This document shows, piece after piece, positions 1,709-41,881 of a DNA stretch of 64,000 bases. Every line of letters begins with the position of its first letter. Position 1 is the stretch's first letter. A program made the translations under genes and the position numbers. Source of the DNA: Escherichia phage JEP8. Location: sequence record MT764208.1; one strand, 5' to 3'. The notes below the pieces were generated by a model. It was given only the letters and a program-made list of their open reading frames with translations. It was not told the origin of the DNA and ran no database searches.

Positions 1709-3392
1709 TCATTTCAGTGAATCGCCCACGTTTAACCATCTTGAGATGACGGCTAAAATCATCAGGGTTATGGTCACGATGGCTGATAATATACACGTTA
1801 TCATCTAACTTGTCAATGATGGAATCAAGTGCTTTTACGCCTTGAACGTCAGTAGCCCCATCATAGATTTCATCGAGTACCAACAAAGAAATATTAGTAC
1901 CAGATACTTTACCAGCAACATCACGCCATGTAAAGAGCATCGCAAGATCAATACGTGCTTTTTCGCCTTGACTGAATGATGTATACGAAAACGATTCACG
2001 CCCCCGTGATTTGATTGTTTCGTTAAACTCTTCATCTAACGTAAAGATATAATCCGCTTCCATGATCTCCAGATAATAAGCAATTCGATCATTGAAATAT
2101 GGAATATATTTCTTGACGATAGACGCCTTAACACCGGAATCCTTCAACATTTCTGTTACAAATCCGCGATGATATTTTTCAAGAACTAGTTTTGATTTTT
2201 CATTGGTAATCTCTACCAGTTCGTGTTCCAGTTTAGCAAGTTCTTCGGAATTGTCAACCCTTTCTTTTTGTAATTCCTGAATTGCTTTCTGGATCTGTTT
2301 AGCCCGACCTACAGATGCCGTTAAATTAGCTCTCTGTGACTCTATAGCGCGTTTAATTTCCAAGACCTTAGTTTGTGCTGTCTGGAAAGAATTGGCTTTC
2401 TCTGCGTATTCTACGCGCTTCTCGTCAATCAGAGACAGCTTATGTTCTGCTTGTGCTTTTTGCTCGCGCACCGCTTGATCATTACCCTGAATGATCGGTT
2501 GTGTACACGTAGGACAGACACCGCCTTTCTCGTGCATATGGATAACACGATCAAAGTTCTGGATCTGTGCCCCAATCTGTGCGATAGCCGTATTAATTTT
2601 AGCCAATGCCGCGCTGGGATCTTCCGGCATAACAACAGCCAATAGCTCATCGGTCAAGCGAGTTTCTTCGGCTTTAAATGCTTTAGCCGATTCCACCTCT
2701 TTATCATACATATTCTGTAAACGCTGGAGATTCTCGGCACTCGCCTTGCTAGCGTCTTCTATGTACTTTTTATGAGTGTTGATTTGTTGCTGAACGTGAT
2801 TAGCTTTCATTTCCTGCATTTGGATATTCTGGGTAATCTCGCGCACATACGCTTTATTCAGTTTATCCATTTCGCCTAGCGTAGCAATATCAAGCAAATC
2901 CTCGACCAGCTTACGGCGACCCGCTGCCGGAAGACTCATAAACGGAACATAACCCGCAGTGCCTAAAACAACAATCTGCTTAAAGCTGGCTAGGTTCATG
3001 CCTATGATACCTTCAAAATATTCCTGAAAGTCTTTGGTGCTTGCGCTCTCATCGATCTTTTGACCGTCGCGATGCACTTCGAATACTTCCGGCTTTTGTC
3101 CACGTTTAATATAAAATTCTTTCCCGTCCAGTTCAAACCAGACTTCGACTAACAGTTTCTTTTTGTTGACGCTGTTAATCAATTGGCCTTTCTTGATACT
3201 ACGAAACGGTTTACCAAACAATACAAAGCAAAGCGCCTCGATCATTGTTGATTTACCAGCACCGTTAACACCAGTGATCAGTGTCTTTTTGAATCCGTCT
3301 AGCTGAATCTCAACAGGTTCAGCACCCACGCTCATTATATTTTGATAGCGCAAGGTTTTAAAATTTAACTTTGCCATTAAGCCACTCCGCAA
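1695..3392 (-). CDS. 46: Recombination endonuclease subunit gp46 (SbcC/Rad50-like ATPase)
   Basis: 565 aa; Walker A GVNGAGKST, long coiled-coil middle, C-terminal LVLDEIYDGATD; adjacent to gp47 as in T4. Confidence 0.9.
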   Translation of the reverse strand: MRSGLMAKLNFKTLRYQNIMSVGAEPVEIQLDGFKKTLITGVNGAGKSTMIEALCFVLFGKPFRSIKKGQLINSVNKKKLLVEVWFELDGKEFYIKRGQKPEVFEVHRDGQKIDESASTKDFQEYFEGIIGMNLASFKQIVVLGTAGYVPFMSLPAAGRRKLVEDLLDIATLGEMDKLNKAYVREITQNIQMQEMKANHVQQQINTHKKYIEDASKASAENLQRLQNMYDKEVESAKAFKAEETRLTDELLAVVMPEDPSAALAKINTAIAQIGAQIQNFDRVIHMHEKGGVCPTCTQPIIQGNDQAVREQKAQAEHKLSLIDEKRVEYAEKANSFQTAQTKVLEIKRAIESQRANLTASVGRAKQIQKAIQELQKERVDNSEELAKLEHELVEITNEKSKLVLEKYHRGFVTEMLKDSGVKASIVKKYIPYFNDRIAYYLEIMEADYIFTLDEEFNETIKSRGRESFSYTSFSQGEKARIDLAMLFTWRDVAGKVSGTNISLLVLDEIYDGATDVQGVKALDSIIDKLDDNVYIISHRDHNPDDFSRHLKMVKRGRFTEMNVNI

Positions 3393-26430: not shown

Positions 26431-26460
26431 GAAAAAGCCACCCTTTCGGATGGCTTTTGA
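26431..26460 (-). terminator. Rho-independent terminator (possibly bidirectional)
   Basis: Hairpin agccatccgaaagggtggct flanked by A-run and T-run. Confidence 0.55.
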
Positions 26461-26688
26461 TTATATTTTATTCTAATCCATTTGTATAGTAGTGTTTGAA
26501 TCGACCTTTGCTAAACTCGTTAAACATAGTAACCAATTTACCACCACTTTCCAATGATAGCACTTCCTCGTCTTAGACGGGTCTTCCGATTCGGCAGTAA
26601 TTGAACACGCGAAAGTATGAGGAAGCCAAATAGTTGTGTTAATGCTAGTATTCTTTTACTTCTGGTATGCATCCCACAGTGACTAACA

Positions 26689-28042: not shown

Positions 28043-28335
28043 TAATTAATCTCCAAAAATCCAGCAAGACCTAAACCGATATAAACCCAGATACAAAGGA
28101 AAAAGAAGCAAACACCCATAGCAAAGATAAATCCGCGTAGTGTCTTTGGATAACCTACCCAATATTCCCGACCATCTTCTAACCGGATCAGCTTATTTCC
28201 TTGAGAGTCCATATCAATTACAACATGTTTATTTCTGGATTGTAACAGATACTGCTTGACAATCTCAATACCCGCCATAATAACAATAACGAAAATAAAA
28301 GTCCACACAACAAGATTAATGATAGTCTCAAGCAT
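28042..28335 (-). CDS. Membrane protein (two TM segments)
   Basis: 97 aa; hydrophobic N- and C-terminal helices. Confidence 0.5.
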   Translation of the reverse strand: MLETIINLVVWTFIFVIVIMAGIEIVKQYLLQSRNKHVVIDMDSQGNKLIRLEDGREYWVGYPKTLRGFIFAMGVCFFFLCIWVYIGLGLAGFLEIN

Positions 28336-28570
28336 TTTCTATCACCTCCACCCAATCAGGTGTTTCCTGAAAGACTCCTTCGCCTTCATGATGGTCGCAA
28401 CCTTTATTGCTGCAATACATCCACCAATCCCACATTCCCCACGGTAAACGATGCATATCGTCGTTACAGCAAGTGAAGATGATAGGCCAACCACATCTAC
28501 CACAACGGCAGTTTTCCTTCATGTGAGCGGTATTAGGCTTCTTCATAGATGACTCCAATATAATCGACAT
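28328..28570 (-). CDS. Cys-rich small protein
   Basis: 80 aa; CRCGRCG...CCNDD...CSNKGCDHHEG. Confidence 0.4.
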   Translation of the reverse strand: MSIILESSMKKPNTAHMKENCRCGRCGWPIIFTCCNDDMHRLPWGMWDWWMYCSNKGCDHHEGEGVFQETPDWVEVIENA

Positions 28571-37117: not shown

Positions 37118-37303
37118 TCAGAAATATGCAATATAGTTTGCCAGTCCTACAGAGTCATCATTCGGCATTGCTTTTACTGCCAGTTCAAACCCTGCTTCAA
37201 CTTTCTGTTTAGCGGATTCTTCGTTATAACCCCAGATTACCAGAATAGCTACTACGTTTTCTTTGCTTACTGCTTTAAGTGCTTTAGTGATGCGACGTGC
37301 CAT
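37118..37303 (-). CDS. Hypothetical protein
   Basis: 61 aa after cassette RBS GGAGAATCAAATT. Confidence 0.45.
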   Translation of the reverse strand: MARRITKALKAVSKENVVAILVIWGYNEESAKQKVEAGFELAVKAMPNDDSVGLANYIAYF

Positions 37304-37349
37304 AATTTGATTCTCCGTTTAAGAAAGTGTGTTTCGTTTCGATGGGTGT

Positions 37350-37378
37350 ATTATGCTATAGGCCGGATCTGGTGTCAA
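37350..37378 (-). promoter_or_regulatory. Early promoter (TTGACA-17-CATAAT)
   Basis: Minus strand TTGACA ccagatccggcctatag CATAAT then conserved leader. Confidence 0.5.
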
Positions 37379-37403
37379 CAACTTTTTTAAAAAAATTTTA
37401 GGC

Positions 37404-37431
37404 AATAAAAAAGCCACTCCGAAGAGTGGCT
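37404..37431 (-). terminator. Rho-independent terminator
   Basis: Hairpin agccactcttcggagtggct followed by TTTTTTATT on the minus strand. Confidence 0.55.
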
Positions 37432-37576
37432 TATAGGGAAGGTAGCGAATCTTCCTTGTCTCCAACCTGCTAGCGGACTAGCAAGTGAATGCTTTAGCGT
37501 ACCGGATCGCCCACATACGCTGTAATAAATGCGGCTAGGTGACGTCCAAATCATTCTAACCGCGCTGTCTTTAGTT
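37432..37576 (-). ncRNA. Candidate small structured RNA (late-promoter to terminator, no ORF)
   Basis: About 150-190 nt without an ORF of 12 aa or more; bounded upstream by minus-strand TATAAATA (37583-37590) and downstream by the terminator; four or five predicted hairpins; GC-richer than flanks. Confidence 0.25.
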
Positions 37577-37581
37577 CACTA

Positions 37582-37800
37582 TTATTTATATCGCTTTCTC
37601 TCGCGACGTTTTTGATCTTCTTCCTTGATAGAGTTAAATGCATCAAAAAGACACATGACACTGATAATGAACATAACCGTATTTTCTACGATATCCCACG
37701 GCTTCGCATCAGTACAGATCCCCCAAACGGTAAGAAATGCAAATAAGGCAGAAGAGATCACAAGCATGATACTTGCTAAGATATAAAAAGTCATTTTCAT
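37582..37800 (-). CDS. Small membrane protein
   Basis: 72 aa; hydrophobic with basic C-terminus (KRRERKRYK). Confidence 0.45.
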   Translation of the reverse strand: MKMTFYILASIMLVISSALFAFLTVWGICTDAKPWDIVENTVMFIISVMCLFDAFNSIKEEDQKRRERKRYK

Positions 37801-38307: not shown

Positions 38308-38546
38308 AGATCACAGATCCATCTAAAAGCACCACATACAGCGATCAGGAGTGTAGGAACACTTGAGAAGAAAACCAACGTACAAAAATCATCTAGTGTA
38401 ATACCGGAATAACTACCGACTGCAATCACACCGATGATCAGACACAGAAAGAAAACAAATGCAATCAGAAACAAAGTATTGCTAAACAGTTTAGTGATCA
38501 TTAGACACCCCACGACGATCAATTTCAAAAACTTTTTTATCATCAA
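38304..38546 (-). CDS. Small membrane protein
   Basis: 80 aa, three hydrophobic segments. Confidence 0.45.
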   Translation of the reverse strand: MMIKKFLKLIVVGCLMITKLFSNTLFLIAFVFFLCLIIGVIAVGSYSGITLDDFCTLVFFSSVPTLLIAVCGAFRWICDL

Positions 38547-38694
38547 CGAAGCATGTCACAACTGCCTCGTTGACTTCCGCAAATTGTTGTGTTACCCACT
38601 TAAGGTCAGATCGAAACAATGTTCTATTAATAACAAATGTTTTACCGCTCTTATCCTTACCCATAAATTTTGCTTTAACCATATCCAATTCCAT
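38491..38694 (-). CDS. Hypothetical protein
   Basis: 67 aa; SD AAGGTGA. Confidence 0.45.
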   Translation of the reverse strand: MELDMVKAKFMGKDKSGKTFVINRTLFRSDLKWVTQQFAEVNEAVVTCFVDDKKVFEIDRRGVSNDH

Positions 38695-38898: not shown

Positions 38899-38927
38899 AT
38901 CTTACTACCCCCGTTTCATGTTGTCAA
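38899..38927 (-). promoter_or_regulatory. PeSL-like early promoter
   Basis: Minus strand TTGACA acatgaaacgggggtag TAAGAT then conserved CGAAACGAAACGAAAGGAG leader. Confidence 0.5.
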
Positions 38928-39414: not shown

Positions 39415-39879
39415 TTACAGTTTGGTCGTCCACTCCAGGTCTAGATCTTCGACATACTCATGAGATCGGACAATCTCTAAATCGAACTCTAGGTCAGTGC
39501 CAAATTTACGCGCACCAACATCATAAGAAAGCGTGATATGCGGTACATATTCAGGATAATCCCACGTCGCACCTAAAGCAGTTCCGATATCGTGTCTGAA
39601 TTGCATGTAGTCGCTTTCAAATGCCAGCACAAGTGCATTAGTACCGGATTGAGTTTCAAACACTTTAAGATGACACAGAGAGCCTAAGAACTTTTCCCCT
39701 TCTTCTGGGATAAACGGAACATAGACACGAGAATATAAGATAGTGCTATGCAGTTTATCACGAGGAACGGCATTAGGCAGATCGTAGAACTCCTGCAATT
39801 TTTCAATGCGGTCTAGTGTATCCTCAGTGAATTTAACAGCCGCATATGTACCTTTAACGGATTCTCGAAACGGGGTCAT
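39415..39879 (-). CDS. 57B: gp57B-like protein
   Basis: 154 aa from ATG after SD GGAGG; size and position relative to 57A/gene 1 match T4 57B. Confidence 0.6.
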   Translation of the reverse strand: MTPFRESVKGTYAAVKFTEDTLDRIEKLQEFYDLPNAVPRDKLHSTILYSRVYVPFIPEEGEKFLGSLCHLKVFETQSGTNALVLAFESDYMQFRHDIGTALGATWDYPEYVPHITLSYDVGARKFGTDLEFDLEIVRSHEYVEDLDLEWTTKL

Positions 39880-39881
39880 AA

Positions 39882-40142
39882 TCAAGCCTCCGTGATCAGT
39901 TCTACTTCCTCTTTATCGTCTTCCGCTGCTTCGTCTTTAGGGAGAAGTGCTTTCACTTCTTCGACAATAGCATCAAGGGAAACAGTGCCGTTTTCGTCTG
40001 GCTGAATACCCAGAATGCGTACCAGTTCCATCAATACACGCTCACGATCTTTCAGTTGGCCTTCTAAGAATGCGGCCTTTTCTTGAGTGTCAAACAGACG
40101 TACTTTCAGGACATTAATCATTTGTTCATGCTGATTGGACAT
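39882..40142 (-). CDS. 57A: Tail-fibre assembly chaperone gp57A
   Basis: 86 aa from ATG after SD AGGAGATG; small acidic coiled-coil protein; position before gene 1 as in T4. Confidence 0.7.
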   Translation of the reverse strand: MSNQHEQMINVLKVRLFDTQEKAAFLEGQLKDRERVLMELVRILGIQPDENGTVSLDAIVEEVKALLPKDEAAEDDKEEVELITEA

Positions 40143-41626: not shown

Positions 41627-41881
41627 ATGACAGAAGACATTTTGTTAAAACTCTATGATCGTTTGGATAACGAATTAGCAACATTGCGGGGTGAAGTTCT
41701 CTATTTGTCTAAATGCAATACAGATCTGCTTAAGCAGATTGCAGAAAGGGATGATCAAATAAAATCCCTTTCAGGTGCATTACGTGATCGCGACAAGGCA
41801 TTAGAGATTTTACAGCGTGTTACCAATAAGGAAGAATTAAAAGACTTCTTACATGGTTATGCTCATGCCATCGATCTATAA
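41627..41881 (+). CDS. Small coiled-coil protein on the opposite strand between gp3 and gp2
   Basis: 84 aa; SD GAGGA 6 nt before ATG; near-late-promoter AATAAATA about 30 nt upstream; ends at a bidirectional terminator. Confidence 0.5.
   Translation: MTEDILLKLYDRLDNELATLRGEVLYLSKCNTDLLKQIAERDDQIKSLSGALRDRDKALEILQRVTNKEELKDFLHGYAHAIDL

What the first reader, a model, noticed from the sequence alone, without database searches (positions are those of the whole stretch)
37391..37600. ORF-free, hairpin-rich segment between a late-type promoter and a terminator: candidate small RNA
About 190 nt in an otherwise gene-dense region has no ORF longer than about 11 codons. On the minus strand it runs from TATAAATA (37583-37590, overlapping the stop of the upstream gene) to a strong terminator (37404-37431) and is predicted to form four or five hairpins. 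It is GC-richer than its flanks. T4 encodes small stable RNAs near its tRNA cluster; no tRNA fold is evident here.
Basis: seen in the sequence. Interest (0 to 1): 0.55.

Follow-up and report, generated by a model that had tools for sequence, protein, structure and literature searches.

The report
Conserved non-coding RNA in RB49-like phages
A roughly 170-base stretch at the end of an anti-defence gene cluster in RB49-type (T4-related) E. coli phages encodes no protein, yet changes far more slowly than the silent sites of its neighbouring genes and keeps its hairpins, so it is most likely an undescribed small phage RNA whose function is still unknown.

Summary
The window is a Krischvirus (RB49/Phi1/GEC-3S-like) genome.

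**What is confirmed**
- The claim "no ORF above 11 codons" is wrong. A 55-aa ATG ORF and a 48-aa TTG ORF exist. The 55-aa ORF is not conserved (15-65 aa in relatives) and has no Shine-Dalgarno; neither has a family hit.

**Evidence for function**
- All 58 Krischvirus genomes and 10 metagenomic relatives carry the element as a single copy. Nothing similar was found in other phages, E. coli genomes, plasmids, Rfam or T4 rnaC/rnaD.
- Outside hairpin 2 it shows 1-4 differences in 119 nt. Synonymous divergence in the same genomes is 7-45% in the flanking genes.
- Hairpin 2 diverges up to 31% but keeps pairing (GC/GU/AU). The G·U intermediates only work for the minus-strand RNA.
- Covariation is modest (4 of 500 shuffles reach it). 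Folding z is -1.9 for the core and -3.2 with the terminator.

**Reading**
- It is a real, unannotated, genus-specific structured RNA element.
- It ends the early operon that contains dmd, downstream of Acb1.
- It probably also has its own TATAAATA late promoter, giving an sRNA of about 170 nt.
- Expression and function are untested. One 21-nt antisense lead was not conserved.

It is a new member of a known kind, of moderate interest.

The parts
37583..37590 (-). TATAAATA, a T4-type late promoter motif that overlaps the last two codons and the stop of the upstream ORF. The predicted late transcript would start near 37575-37578.
   Evidence: It is identical in 22 of 23 copies, including the synonymous positions of Tyr-Lys-stop, while codons just upstream vary. 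It is absent from L025 through a 14-nt deletion. The other four TATAAATA in the window precede an SD plus ATG. The start site is inferred from T4 late-promoter geometry (general knowledge), not measured.
37564..37577 (-). 5' single-stranded leader, GAACUAAAGACAGC.
   Evidence: Unpaired in the folds. The only variation is G/A or a 1-nt deletion at one position.
37531..37563 (-). Hairpin 1: 8 bp, an internal loop, 4 bp, and the loop UUGGAC. It contains the non-functional ATG at 37552-37554.
   Evidence: All 12 pairs are invariant in 19 sequences. The only change seen is C to U in the loop, in L033.
37522..37530 (-). Linker AUUUAUUAC.
   Evidence: Unpaired. One position varies A/G/U.
37496..37521 (-). 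Hairpin 2, the variable hairpin: 7-bp lower stem, 2-3-bp apical stem, and a loop that varies in sequence and length.
   Evidence: Up to 8 of 26 differences, with indels of 1-2 nt. Pairing is nevertheless kept. Pair 68-91 is GC 16 / AU 2 / GU 1. Pair 67-92 is AU 16 / GU 3. Pair 70-89 is GC 18 / GU 1. The apical pair 77-82 is GU 10 / AU 5 / GC 2.
37461..37489 (-). Hairpin 3. The upper stem GCUAG/CUAGC carries a 4-nt loop (UCCG in this window, GCCG in almost all relatives). A weaker lower stem follows, and its 3' side contains GGAG (37460-37463).
   Evidence: The upper stem is invariant. Loop changes are seen in the window itself and in L045. A C-to-A change breaks one pair of the lower stem in kaaroe and AV108.
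37437..37455 (-). Hairpin 4: GGAAG/CUUCC with the 9-nt loop AUUCGCUAC, followed by the single-stranded CCUAUAA.
   Evidence: One A-U to G·U change in L033 keeps the pair. RNAalifold instead pairs AGAUUCGCUA with UAGUGAACU (37573-37581) to close a three-hairpin junction. All pairs of that helix are invariant, so it is untested.
37405..37432 (-). Intrinsic terminator: AAGCCACUC-UUCG-GAGUGGCUU followed by U-rich sequence. It is the stem-loop part of a PeSL cassette.
   Evidence: All 9 pairs are invariant. One loop change, C to A, occurs in L046. PeSL stem-loops were shown to terminate transcription for another cassette (PMC2839356).
37350..37378 (-). Early sigma-70-type promoter of the same PeSL cassette (TTGACA, 17 nt, CATAAT). 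It drives the next gene and is not part of the RNA element.
   Evidence: The cassette is repeated about 9-11 times per genome, whereas the element body is single-copy.
37582..37800 (-). Upstream 72-aa membrane-type ORF (phrog_15168), the last gene of the operon that contains dmd. Its mRNA would carry the element as its 3' untranslated region.
   Evidence: No terminator lies between the promoter at 38927-38899 and 37432 on this strand.

Best explanation
The interval 37405-37590 (minus strand) is a Krischvirus-specific, structured, non-coding RNA element of about 170 nt.

**Anatomy.** A short leader is followed by four hairpins and a strong intrinsic terminator.

**How it is probably made (inferred).**
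- Early in infection it is the 3' end of the polycistronic mRNA that starts at the promoter near 38900 and carries dmd and six small ORFs (one upstream of dmd, five downstream).
- Late in infection it is probably also made on its own. The TATAAATA late promoter overlapping the stop codon of the last ORF would give an RNA of about 170 nt that shares the same terminator.
- This layout matches enterobacterial sRNAs that have a promoter at the end of the upstream gene and reuse its terminator.

**Shown here.**
- It is not coding.
- Its sequence is under strong purifying selection, except in hairpin 2.
- Hairpin 2 evolves fast but keeps its pairing in a way that only fits the minus-strand RNA.

**Inferred.**
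- The invariant stems, loops and linkers are contact surfaces for a protein or RNA partner, and hairpin 2 is a spacer or scaffold.
- The RNA acts in trans as a regulator or decoy rather than only stabilising its own mRNA.
- Its partner and function are unknown.
For: **Distribution**
- The body is present once in each of 58 Krischvirus genomes at 95% identity or more, and nowhere else among 50,697 phage records.
- It was also found in 10 metagenomic or Logan contigs of relatives.

**Sequence constraint**
- Against the most divergent relatives the upstream ORF is 79-84% identical. The element outside hairpin 2 is 97-99% identical and the terminator 100%.
- There are 1-4 differences in 119 nt. 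Synonymous divergence in the same genomes is 7-14% in the downstream ORF and 24-45% in the upstream ORF.
- The binomial P is 7e-5 for L033 using the lower rate, and 1e-13 to 1e-26 using the upper rate.

**Structure**
- Hairpin 2 differs at up to 8 of 26 positions yet 98% of its cells stay paired. It shows GC/GU/AU and GU/AU/GC series.
- The G·U states would be C·A mismatches on the other strand.
- Elsewhere, changes fall in loops or linkers, or keep pairing.
- For the whole structure, 99.4% of cells are paired and the covariation score is 0.031; 4 of 500 shuffles reach each, and slid registers give 27-46% paired.
- Folding z is -3.15 with the terminator and -1.93 for the core, against -1.16 for the opposite strand.

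**Not coding**
- The ORF is 15-65 aa across copies, has no SD and has no family match.

**Promoter and terminator**
- TATAAATA is invariant at synonymous sites in 22 of 23 copies.
- The four other occurrences in the window all look functional.
- The terminator is strong and invariant.
Against: - No expression data exist for any Krischvirus in the searched literature.
- Covariation rests on one hairpin and few independent events. The tool's own caveat is that 5-25% of unconstrained alignments reach 5 of 500 shuffles or fewer.
- Hairpins 1, 3 and 4 never vary, so their structure is untested.
- The thermodynamic signal of the core is modest.
- The highly conserved block continues through the promoter cassette and the next ORF. 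Part of the low divergence could therefore reflect recombination history, although the synonymous-site comparison argues against that.
- One metagenomic copy (L025) lacks TATAAATA. Another (L026) differs after GGAGAC, at a contig end.
- No conserved target was found.
Confidence: 0.6

Rival explanations
1. It is a purely cis-acting 3' untranslated region. The hairpins only protect the dmd-operon mRNA against 3' exonucleases or RNase E, or improve termination and insulation in front of the next early promoter. No independent or trans-acting RNA exists.
For: By position it is the 3' end of that operon, with no terminator in between. One copy lacks the late promoter motif. TATAAATA is not enriched in the window overall.
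Against: - Other cassette-containing gaps in the same genome make do with 66-110 nt and a single hairpin.
- About 119 nt, including loops and single-stranded linkers, are nearly invariant. That is more sequence specificity than a generic stabiliser needs.
- TATAAATA is kept at synonymous positions in 22 of 23 copies.
Confidence: 0.2
2. It is a DNA-level element, such as a protein-binding, recombination or replication site. The conservation is real but acts on the duplex, not on an RNA.
For: It lies next to a PeSL cassette, which is proposed to mediate recombination (PMC2839356). Stems and loops are equally invariant in hairpins 1 and 3.
Against: Hairpin 2 keeps its pairing through G·U intermediates that exist only in the minus-strand RNA. 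The element is single-copy, unlike the cassettes. No repeats or iterons were seen, and the GC-skew profile shows no feature there.
Confidence: 0.07
3. It is a non-functional spacer that looks conserved only because the block from the element through the cassette to the next ORF spread recently by recombination among these phages.
For: The conserved block is mosaic. The next ORF (37118-37303) is also 97-98% identical, while the ORFs on either side are about 80%.
Against: In the same block the synonymous sites of that ORF differ by 7-14%, against 1-3% for the element outside hairpin 2. Hairpin 2, in the middle of the block, has accumulated up to 31% differences and indels, so the block is not uniformly young.
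Confidence: 0.08
4. It encodes a small protein: the 55-aa ATG ORF, a 15-aa micropeptide, or the 48-aa TTG ORF. Alternatively it is a decaying gene.
For: The ATG at 37554 lies 28 nt after TATAAATA, a spacing like that of real late genes. Its first 10 codons are identical in all copies. Some records annotate an ORF here.
Against: - ORF length is 15-65 aa with three different reading frames after codon 13.
- There is no SD, and the AUG lies inside hairpin 1.
- The ORFs run through the terminator and the next promoter.
- Neither ORF has a family match.
- A decaying gene would diverge at the neutral rate, which is not seen.
Confidence: 0.05

Closest known systems
T4 stable RNAs rnaC and rnaD (species 1 and 2 RNAs, function unknown)
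   Same: They are small non-coding RNAs of a T4-type phage. They lie on the early-gene strand, a few kb downstream of genes 1, 57A and 57B/Acb1, in the same direction of transcription. Their function is unknown (PMC3014915).
   Different: - There is no sequence similarity, and no hit of the covariance model in the T4 region.
- The T4 RNAs sit inside a tRNA cluster, and rnaC ends in a tRNA-like T-arm (seen in the sequence).
- This window has no tRNA genes.
- This element has its own intrinsic terminator and a late promoter motif.
Enterobacterial sRNAs that overlap the 3' end of a gene and share its terminator (DapZ/MicL type with an internal promoter; CpxQ/SroC type made by processing)
   Same: The architecture matches: a promoter motif at the very end of the upstream coding sequence, a non-coding body, and a terminator shared with the mRNA. 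The comparison class is cited from general knowledge.
   Different: The promoter is a phage late (gp55-type) motif rather than a host sigma-factor site. No Hfq or ProQ binding, seed or target is known. The RNA would be longer and more structured than most such sRNAs.
PeSL cassettes of RB49/Phi1 (early promoter plus stem-loop terminator; Arbiol et al. 2010, PMC2839356)
   Same: The terminator at 37405-37432 and the promoter at 37350-37378 form such a cassette.
   Different: The 145-nt body upstream of the stem-loop is not part of the repeated cassette. It occurs once per genome, against 6-11 cassette matches per genome.
Phage-encoded regulatory sRNAs and anti-sRNA sponges of temperate phages (for example StxS and the sRNAs reviewed in PMC12197685)
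   Same: They are the same general kind: a short phage-encoded transcript with a terminator, acting as RNA.
   Different: Those RNAs come from prophages and have known host targets. This element is in a strictly virulent T4-type phage, shows no homology to them, and has no known target.

Membership tests
tRNA / tmRNA / tRNA-like RNA | A cloverleaf or tRNA-like domain detectable by ARAGORN or by the Rfam tRNA models | tested here: not met
   ARAGORN finds no gene in the whole window. There is no tRNA or tmRNA hit even at E up to 10.
Any Rfam 15 family (riboswitches, ribozymes, known sRNAs, CRISPR repeats) | A covariance-model match at the gathering score | tested here: not met
   No matches at gathering score in the window. 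The relaxed search gives only scores of 16-24 bits against cut-offs of 41-100, to unrelated sRNA and antisense models; the printed alignments rest mainly on the terminator hairpin.
T4 rnaC/rnaD homologue | Sequence or profile similarity to T4 rnaC or rnaD | tested here: not met
   blastn-short and nhmmer against the T4 tRNA region find nothing in rnaC or rnaD. Model R1 has no hit in L005.
T4 rnaC/rnaD homologue | Embedded in a tRNA gene cluster | tested here: not met
   The window has no tRNA genes. The neighbours are small ORFs. Only the broad position downstream of genes 1, 57A and Acb1 is shared.
Independent small RNA gene | A promoter directly upstream | tested here: inconclusive
   The TATAAATA motif is present and conserved in 22 of 23 copies. 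It is a motif only, it is missing in L025, and no transcription start data exist.
Independent small RNA gene | An intrinsic terminator at the 3' end | tested here: met
   A 9-bp G+C-rich stem, UUCG loop and U-run. It is invariant in relatives.
Independent small RNA gene | No conserved reading frame | tested here: met
   The ORF is 15-65 aa with frameshifts, has no SD and has no family match.
Independent small RNA gene | Sequence and structure conserved beyond the neutral expectation | tested here: met
   Sequence. Structure: only hairpin 2 is informative, and support is modest.
Independent small RNA gene | A discrete stable transcript in infected cells | not testable with these tools
   No Krischvirus transcriptome was found in the paper library.
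Hfq- or ProQ-dependent base-pairing sRNA | A conserved seed with conserved complementary target sites, plus chaperone binding | tested here: inconclusive
   Within the window the only outlier is a 21-pair match at 28487-28507 (3 of 200 shuffles reach it). It is broken in 5 of 6 other isolates. The host transcriptome could not be scanned, and chaperone binding is not testable here.
PeSL cassette | A repeated unit consisting of a stem-loop, an AT-rich tract and a strong sigma-70-like promoter | tested here: met
   This is met for 37350-37432 only. The body at 37433-37577 is single-copy and lies outside the repeat.
Transcription-attenuating riboswitch or leader | A known aptamer, plus an antiterminator alternative to the terminator | tested here: not met
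   No Rfam aptamer was found. By inspection, no conserved sequence complementary to the terminator's 5' arm was seen; this check is weak. The downstream gene has its own strong promoter.

The most novel reading that the evidence does not exclude
The RNA may be an RNA-based counter-defence factor, that is, a decoy or inhibitor for a host nuclease or sensor. It closes the operon that carries Dmd (antitoxin against RnlA/LsoA) and lies 1.8 kb downstream of Acb1 (anti-CBASS). This is a region where T4-type phages collect anti-defence genes; for example tifA next to dmd is described in the abstract of PMC10853763. Its invariant hairpins and loops would then be the surface recognised by the host protein. 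Nothing tested here excludes this reading, and nothing tested supports it beyond the location.
Probability: 0.1. Interest if true: 0.8.

Novelty: new member of a known kind. Interest (0 to 1): 0.45.

Why it matters
- Virulent T4-type phages are a classic model system. [quoted passage not shown] Reviews of phage sRNAs deal almost entirely with prophages.
- This element is a well-defined candidate. It is about 170 nt long, is present in every sequenced Krischvirus (a genus used in phage-therapy cocktails), is unannotated in all 58 records, and has clear boundaries.
- Its pattern of constraint tells an experimenter which parts to mutate: the invariant hairpins 1, 3 and 4 and the linkers, versus the free-to-vary hairpin 2.
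- Its place at the end of an anti-defence operon makes a role in host takeover or counter-defence directly testable.
- If it proves to be only a 3' UTR stabiliser, the finding is a useful annotation and little more.

Tried and rejected
1. **Known RNA families and tRNA.** None found.
2. **Homology to T4 rnaC/rnaD or the T4 tRNA region.** None by blastn-short, nhmmer or covariance model R1. In the window R1 finds only itself, plus an 11.7-bit hit at 41672-41771 that I regard as noise.
3. **Origin from the host or from plasmids.** No blastn match in 5,426 E. coli genomes or 72,556 plasmids.
4. **More distant homologues.**
   - blastn of the body against all phage records finds only Krischvirus.
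   - A 20-mer scan of IMG/VR gave four unrelated high-GC phage genes.
   - My first gapped pattern had the wrong spacing and gave one chance hit.
   - The 18-mer metagenome scan gave 3 true and 6 chance hits.
5. **Protein-coding readings.** Rejected.
6. **Antisense targets inside the window.**
   - Exact 11-mers are at the chance level and lie on the non-coding strand.
   - A first duplexfold scan of the whole window timed out. A second one, restricted to translation-start regions, gave uninterpretable long-loop duplexes.
   - A run-based scan found a 21-pair match (14 Watson-Crick and 7 G·U) to 28487-28507, inside a Cys-rich 72-aa ORF. 3 of 200 shuffles reach that score.
   - Five of six other isolates carry two changes there that break pairs, with no matching change in the element. 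I treat it as chance.
7. **Mimic of a type I-F CRISPR repeat (UUCACU plus hairpin).** This was a resemblance recalled from memory. No Rfam CRISPR-DR hit appears even at E up to 10, and the stem and loop sizes differ. Dropped.
8. **Long-range helix closing a three-hairpin junction.** All its pairs are invariant, and it would be absent from a late-promoter transcript. It is neither supported nor refuted.
9. **The divergent 3' tail of L026.** It has no match in phage records and lies at a contig end. Uninterpretable.
10. **Literature on Krischvirus or RB49 transcripts or sRNAs.** Nothing relevant is held. The RB49 genome paper is not in the library.
Full report
**Where we are.** The 401 bases around the finding match 58 genomes of the genus Krischvirus (RB49, Phi1, JSE, GEC-3S and others; T4-type "pseudo-T-even" coliphages) at 95-99.5% identity. 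Genes here run on the minus strand. The order, from the GEC-3S annotation and Pfam, is:
- dNMP kinase (gene 1), then the 57A chaperone
- a 156-aa Acb1 anti-CBASS protein (174 bits)
- one ORF, then an early promoter
- a 52-aa ORF, then Dmd (58.6 bits)
- five small, mostly membrane-type ORFs
- the interval under study
- a terminator and early promoter, then a 61-aa ORF

The terminator-plus-promoter unit is one of the PeSL cassettes described for RB49 and Phi1. These combine a strong sigma-70-like promoter with a stem-loop that terminates transcription (PMC2839356).

**The observation.**
- TATAAATA (37583-37590), the terminator (stem 37411-37432, UUCG loop, T-run) and a chain of hairpins are all present.
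- G+C is moderately raised, 0.49 against about 0.36-0.42.
- The gap between annotated genes is 277 nt. Neighbouring cassette-containing gaps measure 66-110 nt.
- There is no tRNA and no Rfam family.
- The statement that no ORF exceeds about 11 codons is wrong. A 55-aa ATG ORF (37387-37554) and a 48-aa TTG ORF (37319-37465) exist on the minus strand, and a few database records annotate one.
- Folding energy alone is only moderately unusual. z is -3.15 including the terminator, -1.93 for the 145-nt core, and -1.16 for the opposite strand.

**It is not a gene and not a decaying gene.**
- I collected 23 copies, 21 of them distinct. They come from this window, from 13 GenBank isolates, and from IMG/VR, JGI, ENA and Logan contigs found by DNA pattern or through relatives of the upstream protein.
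- Across 18 of these copies the ATG ORF is 15, 19, 22, 24, 55 or 65 aa long. One- and two-base indels and stops in hairpin 2 change the frame.
- The four other TATAAATA motifs in the window are each followed by a clear Shine-Dalgarno and ATG. This one is followed by GCGCGGUUAGA-AUG, and the AUG lies inside hairpin 1.
- The ORFs run through the terminator and into the next promoter, and they match no PHROG or Pfam family.
- A decaying ORF would drift at the neutral rate. The opposite is seen.

**Sequence constraint.**
- In the most divergent relatives the upstream 72-aa ORF is only 79-84% identical at the DNA level. The element outside hairpin 2 is 97-99% identical and the terminator 100%.
- The conserved block continues through the promoter cassette and the next ORF (97-98%), so a recent recombinational sweep had to be considered.
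- That ORF differs at 3-6 of about 42 synonymous sites (7-14%), and the upstream ORF at 24-45%. The element outside hairpin 2 shows 1-4 differences in 119 nt.
- The binomial P is 7e-5 for L033 with the lower rate, and 1e-13 to 1e-26 with the upper rate. These pairwise tests share phylogeny and are not independent.
- Hairpin 2, in the middle of the block, differs at up to 8 of 26 positions and carries indels. The block is therefore old enough to have diverged, and the rest of the element has been held constant.

**Structure.**
- Single-sequence and alignment folds agree on hairpins 1-3 and the terminator; hairpin 4 appears only in the single-sequence folds.
- Only hairpin 2 varies enough to test:
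  - One pair runs GC (16), GU (1), AU (2).
  - Its neighbour is AU (16) or GU (3).
  - Another is GC (18) or GU (1).
  - The apical pair is GU (10), AU (5) or GC (2).
- Hairpin 4 has one A-U to G·U change.
- The remaining changes fall in loops (hairpin 1, hairpin 3, terminator) or in linkers.
- The one disrupting change is C to A in the lower stem of hairpin 3, in the kaaroe copy (identical in L016) and in AV108.
- Overall 99.4% of cells are paired, against 27-46% when the partner is slid by 1-3 columns. The covariation score is reached by 4 of 500 shuffles. By the tool's own caveat this is suggestive, not proof.
- The G·U intermediates would be C·A mismatches in an RNA from the plus strand. 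The constrained molecule is therefore the minus-strand transcript, the same sense as the genes.
- RNAalifold also proposes a 9-bp long-range helix (UAGUGAACU with AGAUUCGCUA) that would close a three-hairpin junction instead of hairpin 4. All its pairs are invariant, and its 5' strand would be missing from a transcript that starts at the late promoter. It stays open.

**How the RNA would be made.**
- There is no terminator on the minus strand between the early promoter at 38927-38899 and 37432. Early in infection the element is therefore the 3' end of the operon that contains dmd.
- TATAAATA is the complete T4-type late promoter motif (established knowledge).
- In this window it occurs five times, no more than chance (6.4 expected). 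The other four sit 27-81 nt upstream of an SD plus ATG in the right orientation, at rI, 57A and two baseplate genes.
- The copy at 37583-37590 is unchanged at the synonymous positions of Tyr-Lys-stop in 22 of 23 sequences, while the codons just before it vary.
- A late transcript would start near 37576 and end near 37405, giving about 170 nt.
- Against an essential promoter: one metagenomic contig (L025) has lost TATAAATA through a 14-nt deletion but keeps the element.
- Both routes are inferred. No transcript data were found.

**What it might do.**
- Stems, loops and linkers are near-invariant in hairpins 1, 3 and 4, while hairpin 2 is free to vary. This points to sequence-specific contacts with a partner and a spacer role for hairpin 2 (inference).
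- I looked for a partner RNA within the 64-kb window. Exact complementary 11-mers are at chance level.
- A run-based scan gave one outlier: 21 contiguous pairs (7 of them G·U) with 28487-28507, in the mRNA of a Cys-rich 72-aa ORF. 3 of 200 dinucleotide shuffles reach that score.
- Five of six other isolates have two substitutions there that break pairs, without any matching change in the element. I discard it.
- The host transcriptome could not be scanned.
- There is no similarity to E. coli, plasmids, the T4 stable RNAs or any Rfam family.
- The location, at the end of the operon that contains Dmd and just downstream of Acb1, makes a role in host takeover or counter-defence an attractive guess, but it remains a guess.

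**Comparison with what is known.**
- The nearest relatives in kind are the T4 rnaC and rnaD stable RNAs. They share the phage type, the broad genome position and an unknown function. They share no sequence, tRNA-like domain or tRNA neighbourhood.
- The element also resembles enterobacterial sRNAs that start at the end of a gene and reuse its terminator. That is a resemblance of architecture only.
- The terminator and the downstream promoter belong to a PeSL cassette. The 145-nt body does not, being single-copy.

**Verdict.** This is a real feature: a genus-specific, unannotated, structured non-coding RNA element under strong purifying selection.
The non-coding RNA is supported; an independent late sRNA is plausible but unproven.
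- Probabilities: about 0.6 for a functional RNA that also acts beyond its own mRNA, 0.2 for a purely cis-acting 3' UTR, and the remainder for DNA-level, sweep or coding explanations.
- It is a new member of a known kind (a phage small RNA), of moderate interest.

Noticed in passing
window 26452-26688 (minus strand): A second ORF-free interval of about 235 nt has the same layout: the end of a 132-aa ORF, a long gap, then a PeSL terminator (26434-26451) and an early promoter. It is unrelated in sequence to the element. Its fold z is only -1.66, and it contains short ORFs of 24-44 aa.
   Followed up: partly
window 39415-39885 and 38491-38694 (minus strand): The ORF after 57A is an Acb1 anti-CBASS phosphodiesterase (PF23474, 174 bits). 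Dmd (PF17587, 58.6 bits) lies 0.7 kb further on. The element therefore closes a stretch rich in counter-defence genes, and the five small ORFs between dmd and the element have no assigned function.
   Followed up: partly
window 37118-37303 (minus strand): The 61-aa ORF just downstream (DUF7421, phrog_7717) is also found at about 74-80% amino-acid identity in many ~50-kb E. coli and Shigella phages (damhaus, vojen, SH6 and others). Within Krischvirus it differs almost only at synonymous sites. It looks like a horizontally shared and strongly constrained small gene.
   Followed up: no
L025 (MAVA01000028.1), about 3290-3340: This metagenomic Krischvirus copy has a 14-nt deletion that removes GATATAAATAATAG (the late promoter motif and the original stop), and two extra A in a nearby A-run. 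The upstream ORF ends differently (70 aa) while the element is intact. It could be real variation or an assembly error.
   Followed up: partly
L026 (OQVL01013596.1), 1-60: This copy matches the element up to GGUUGGAGAC and then continues with an unrelated 50-nt sequence in place of hairpin 4 and the terminator, up to the contig end. The tail has no match in phage records. It may be a module swap at that point or a chimeric contig end.
   Followed up: partly
window 28487-28507 (minus strand), inside ORF 28328-28546: A 21-nt stretch in a Cys-rich (CxCxxC) 72-aa ORF between tk and vs is fully complementary, with 7 G·U pairs, to element positions 37518-37538. It is an outlier against shuffles (3 of 200) but is not conserved in five of six other isolates.
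   Followed up: yes
window 37477: The first loop base of hairpin 3 is U in this window but G in all 20 other distinct copies examined. It is a private substitution of this isolate.
   Followed up: no
window 37466-37538: The tetranucleotide CTAG occurs three times within about 70 nt (CCTAGCC, GCTAGT, GCTAGC). The 3' arm of hairpin 1 (CUAGCCGC) resembles the 5' half of hairpin 3 (CUAGUCCGC here, CUAGGCCGC in relatives). Alternative pairings, dimerisation through the palindromic GCUAGC, or a repeated protein-binding motif are therefore conceivable. Its significance was not computed.
   Followed up: no
window 41672-41771 (plus strand): A weak hit of the element's covariance model (11.7 bits, rough E of 0.06) lies inside the 84-aa plus-strand ORF next to the gene 3 homologue. 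It is most likely noise.
   Followed up: no
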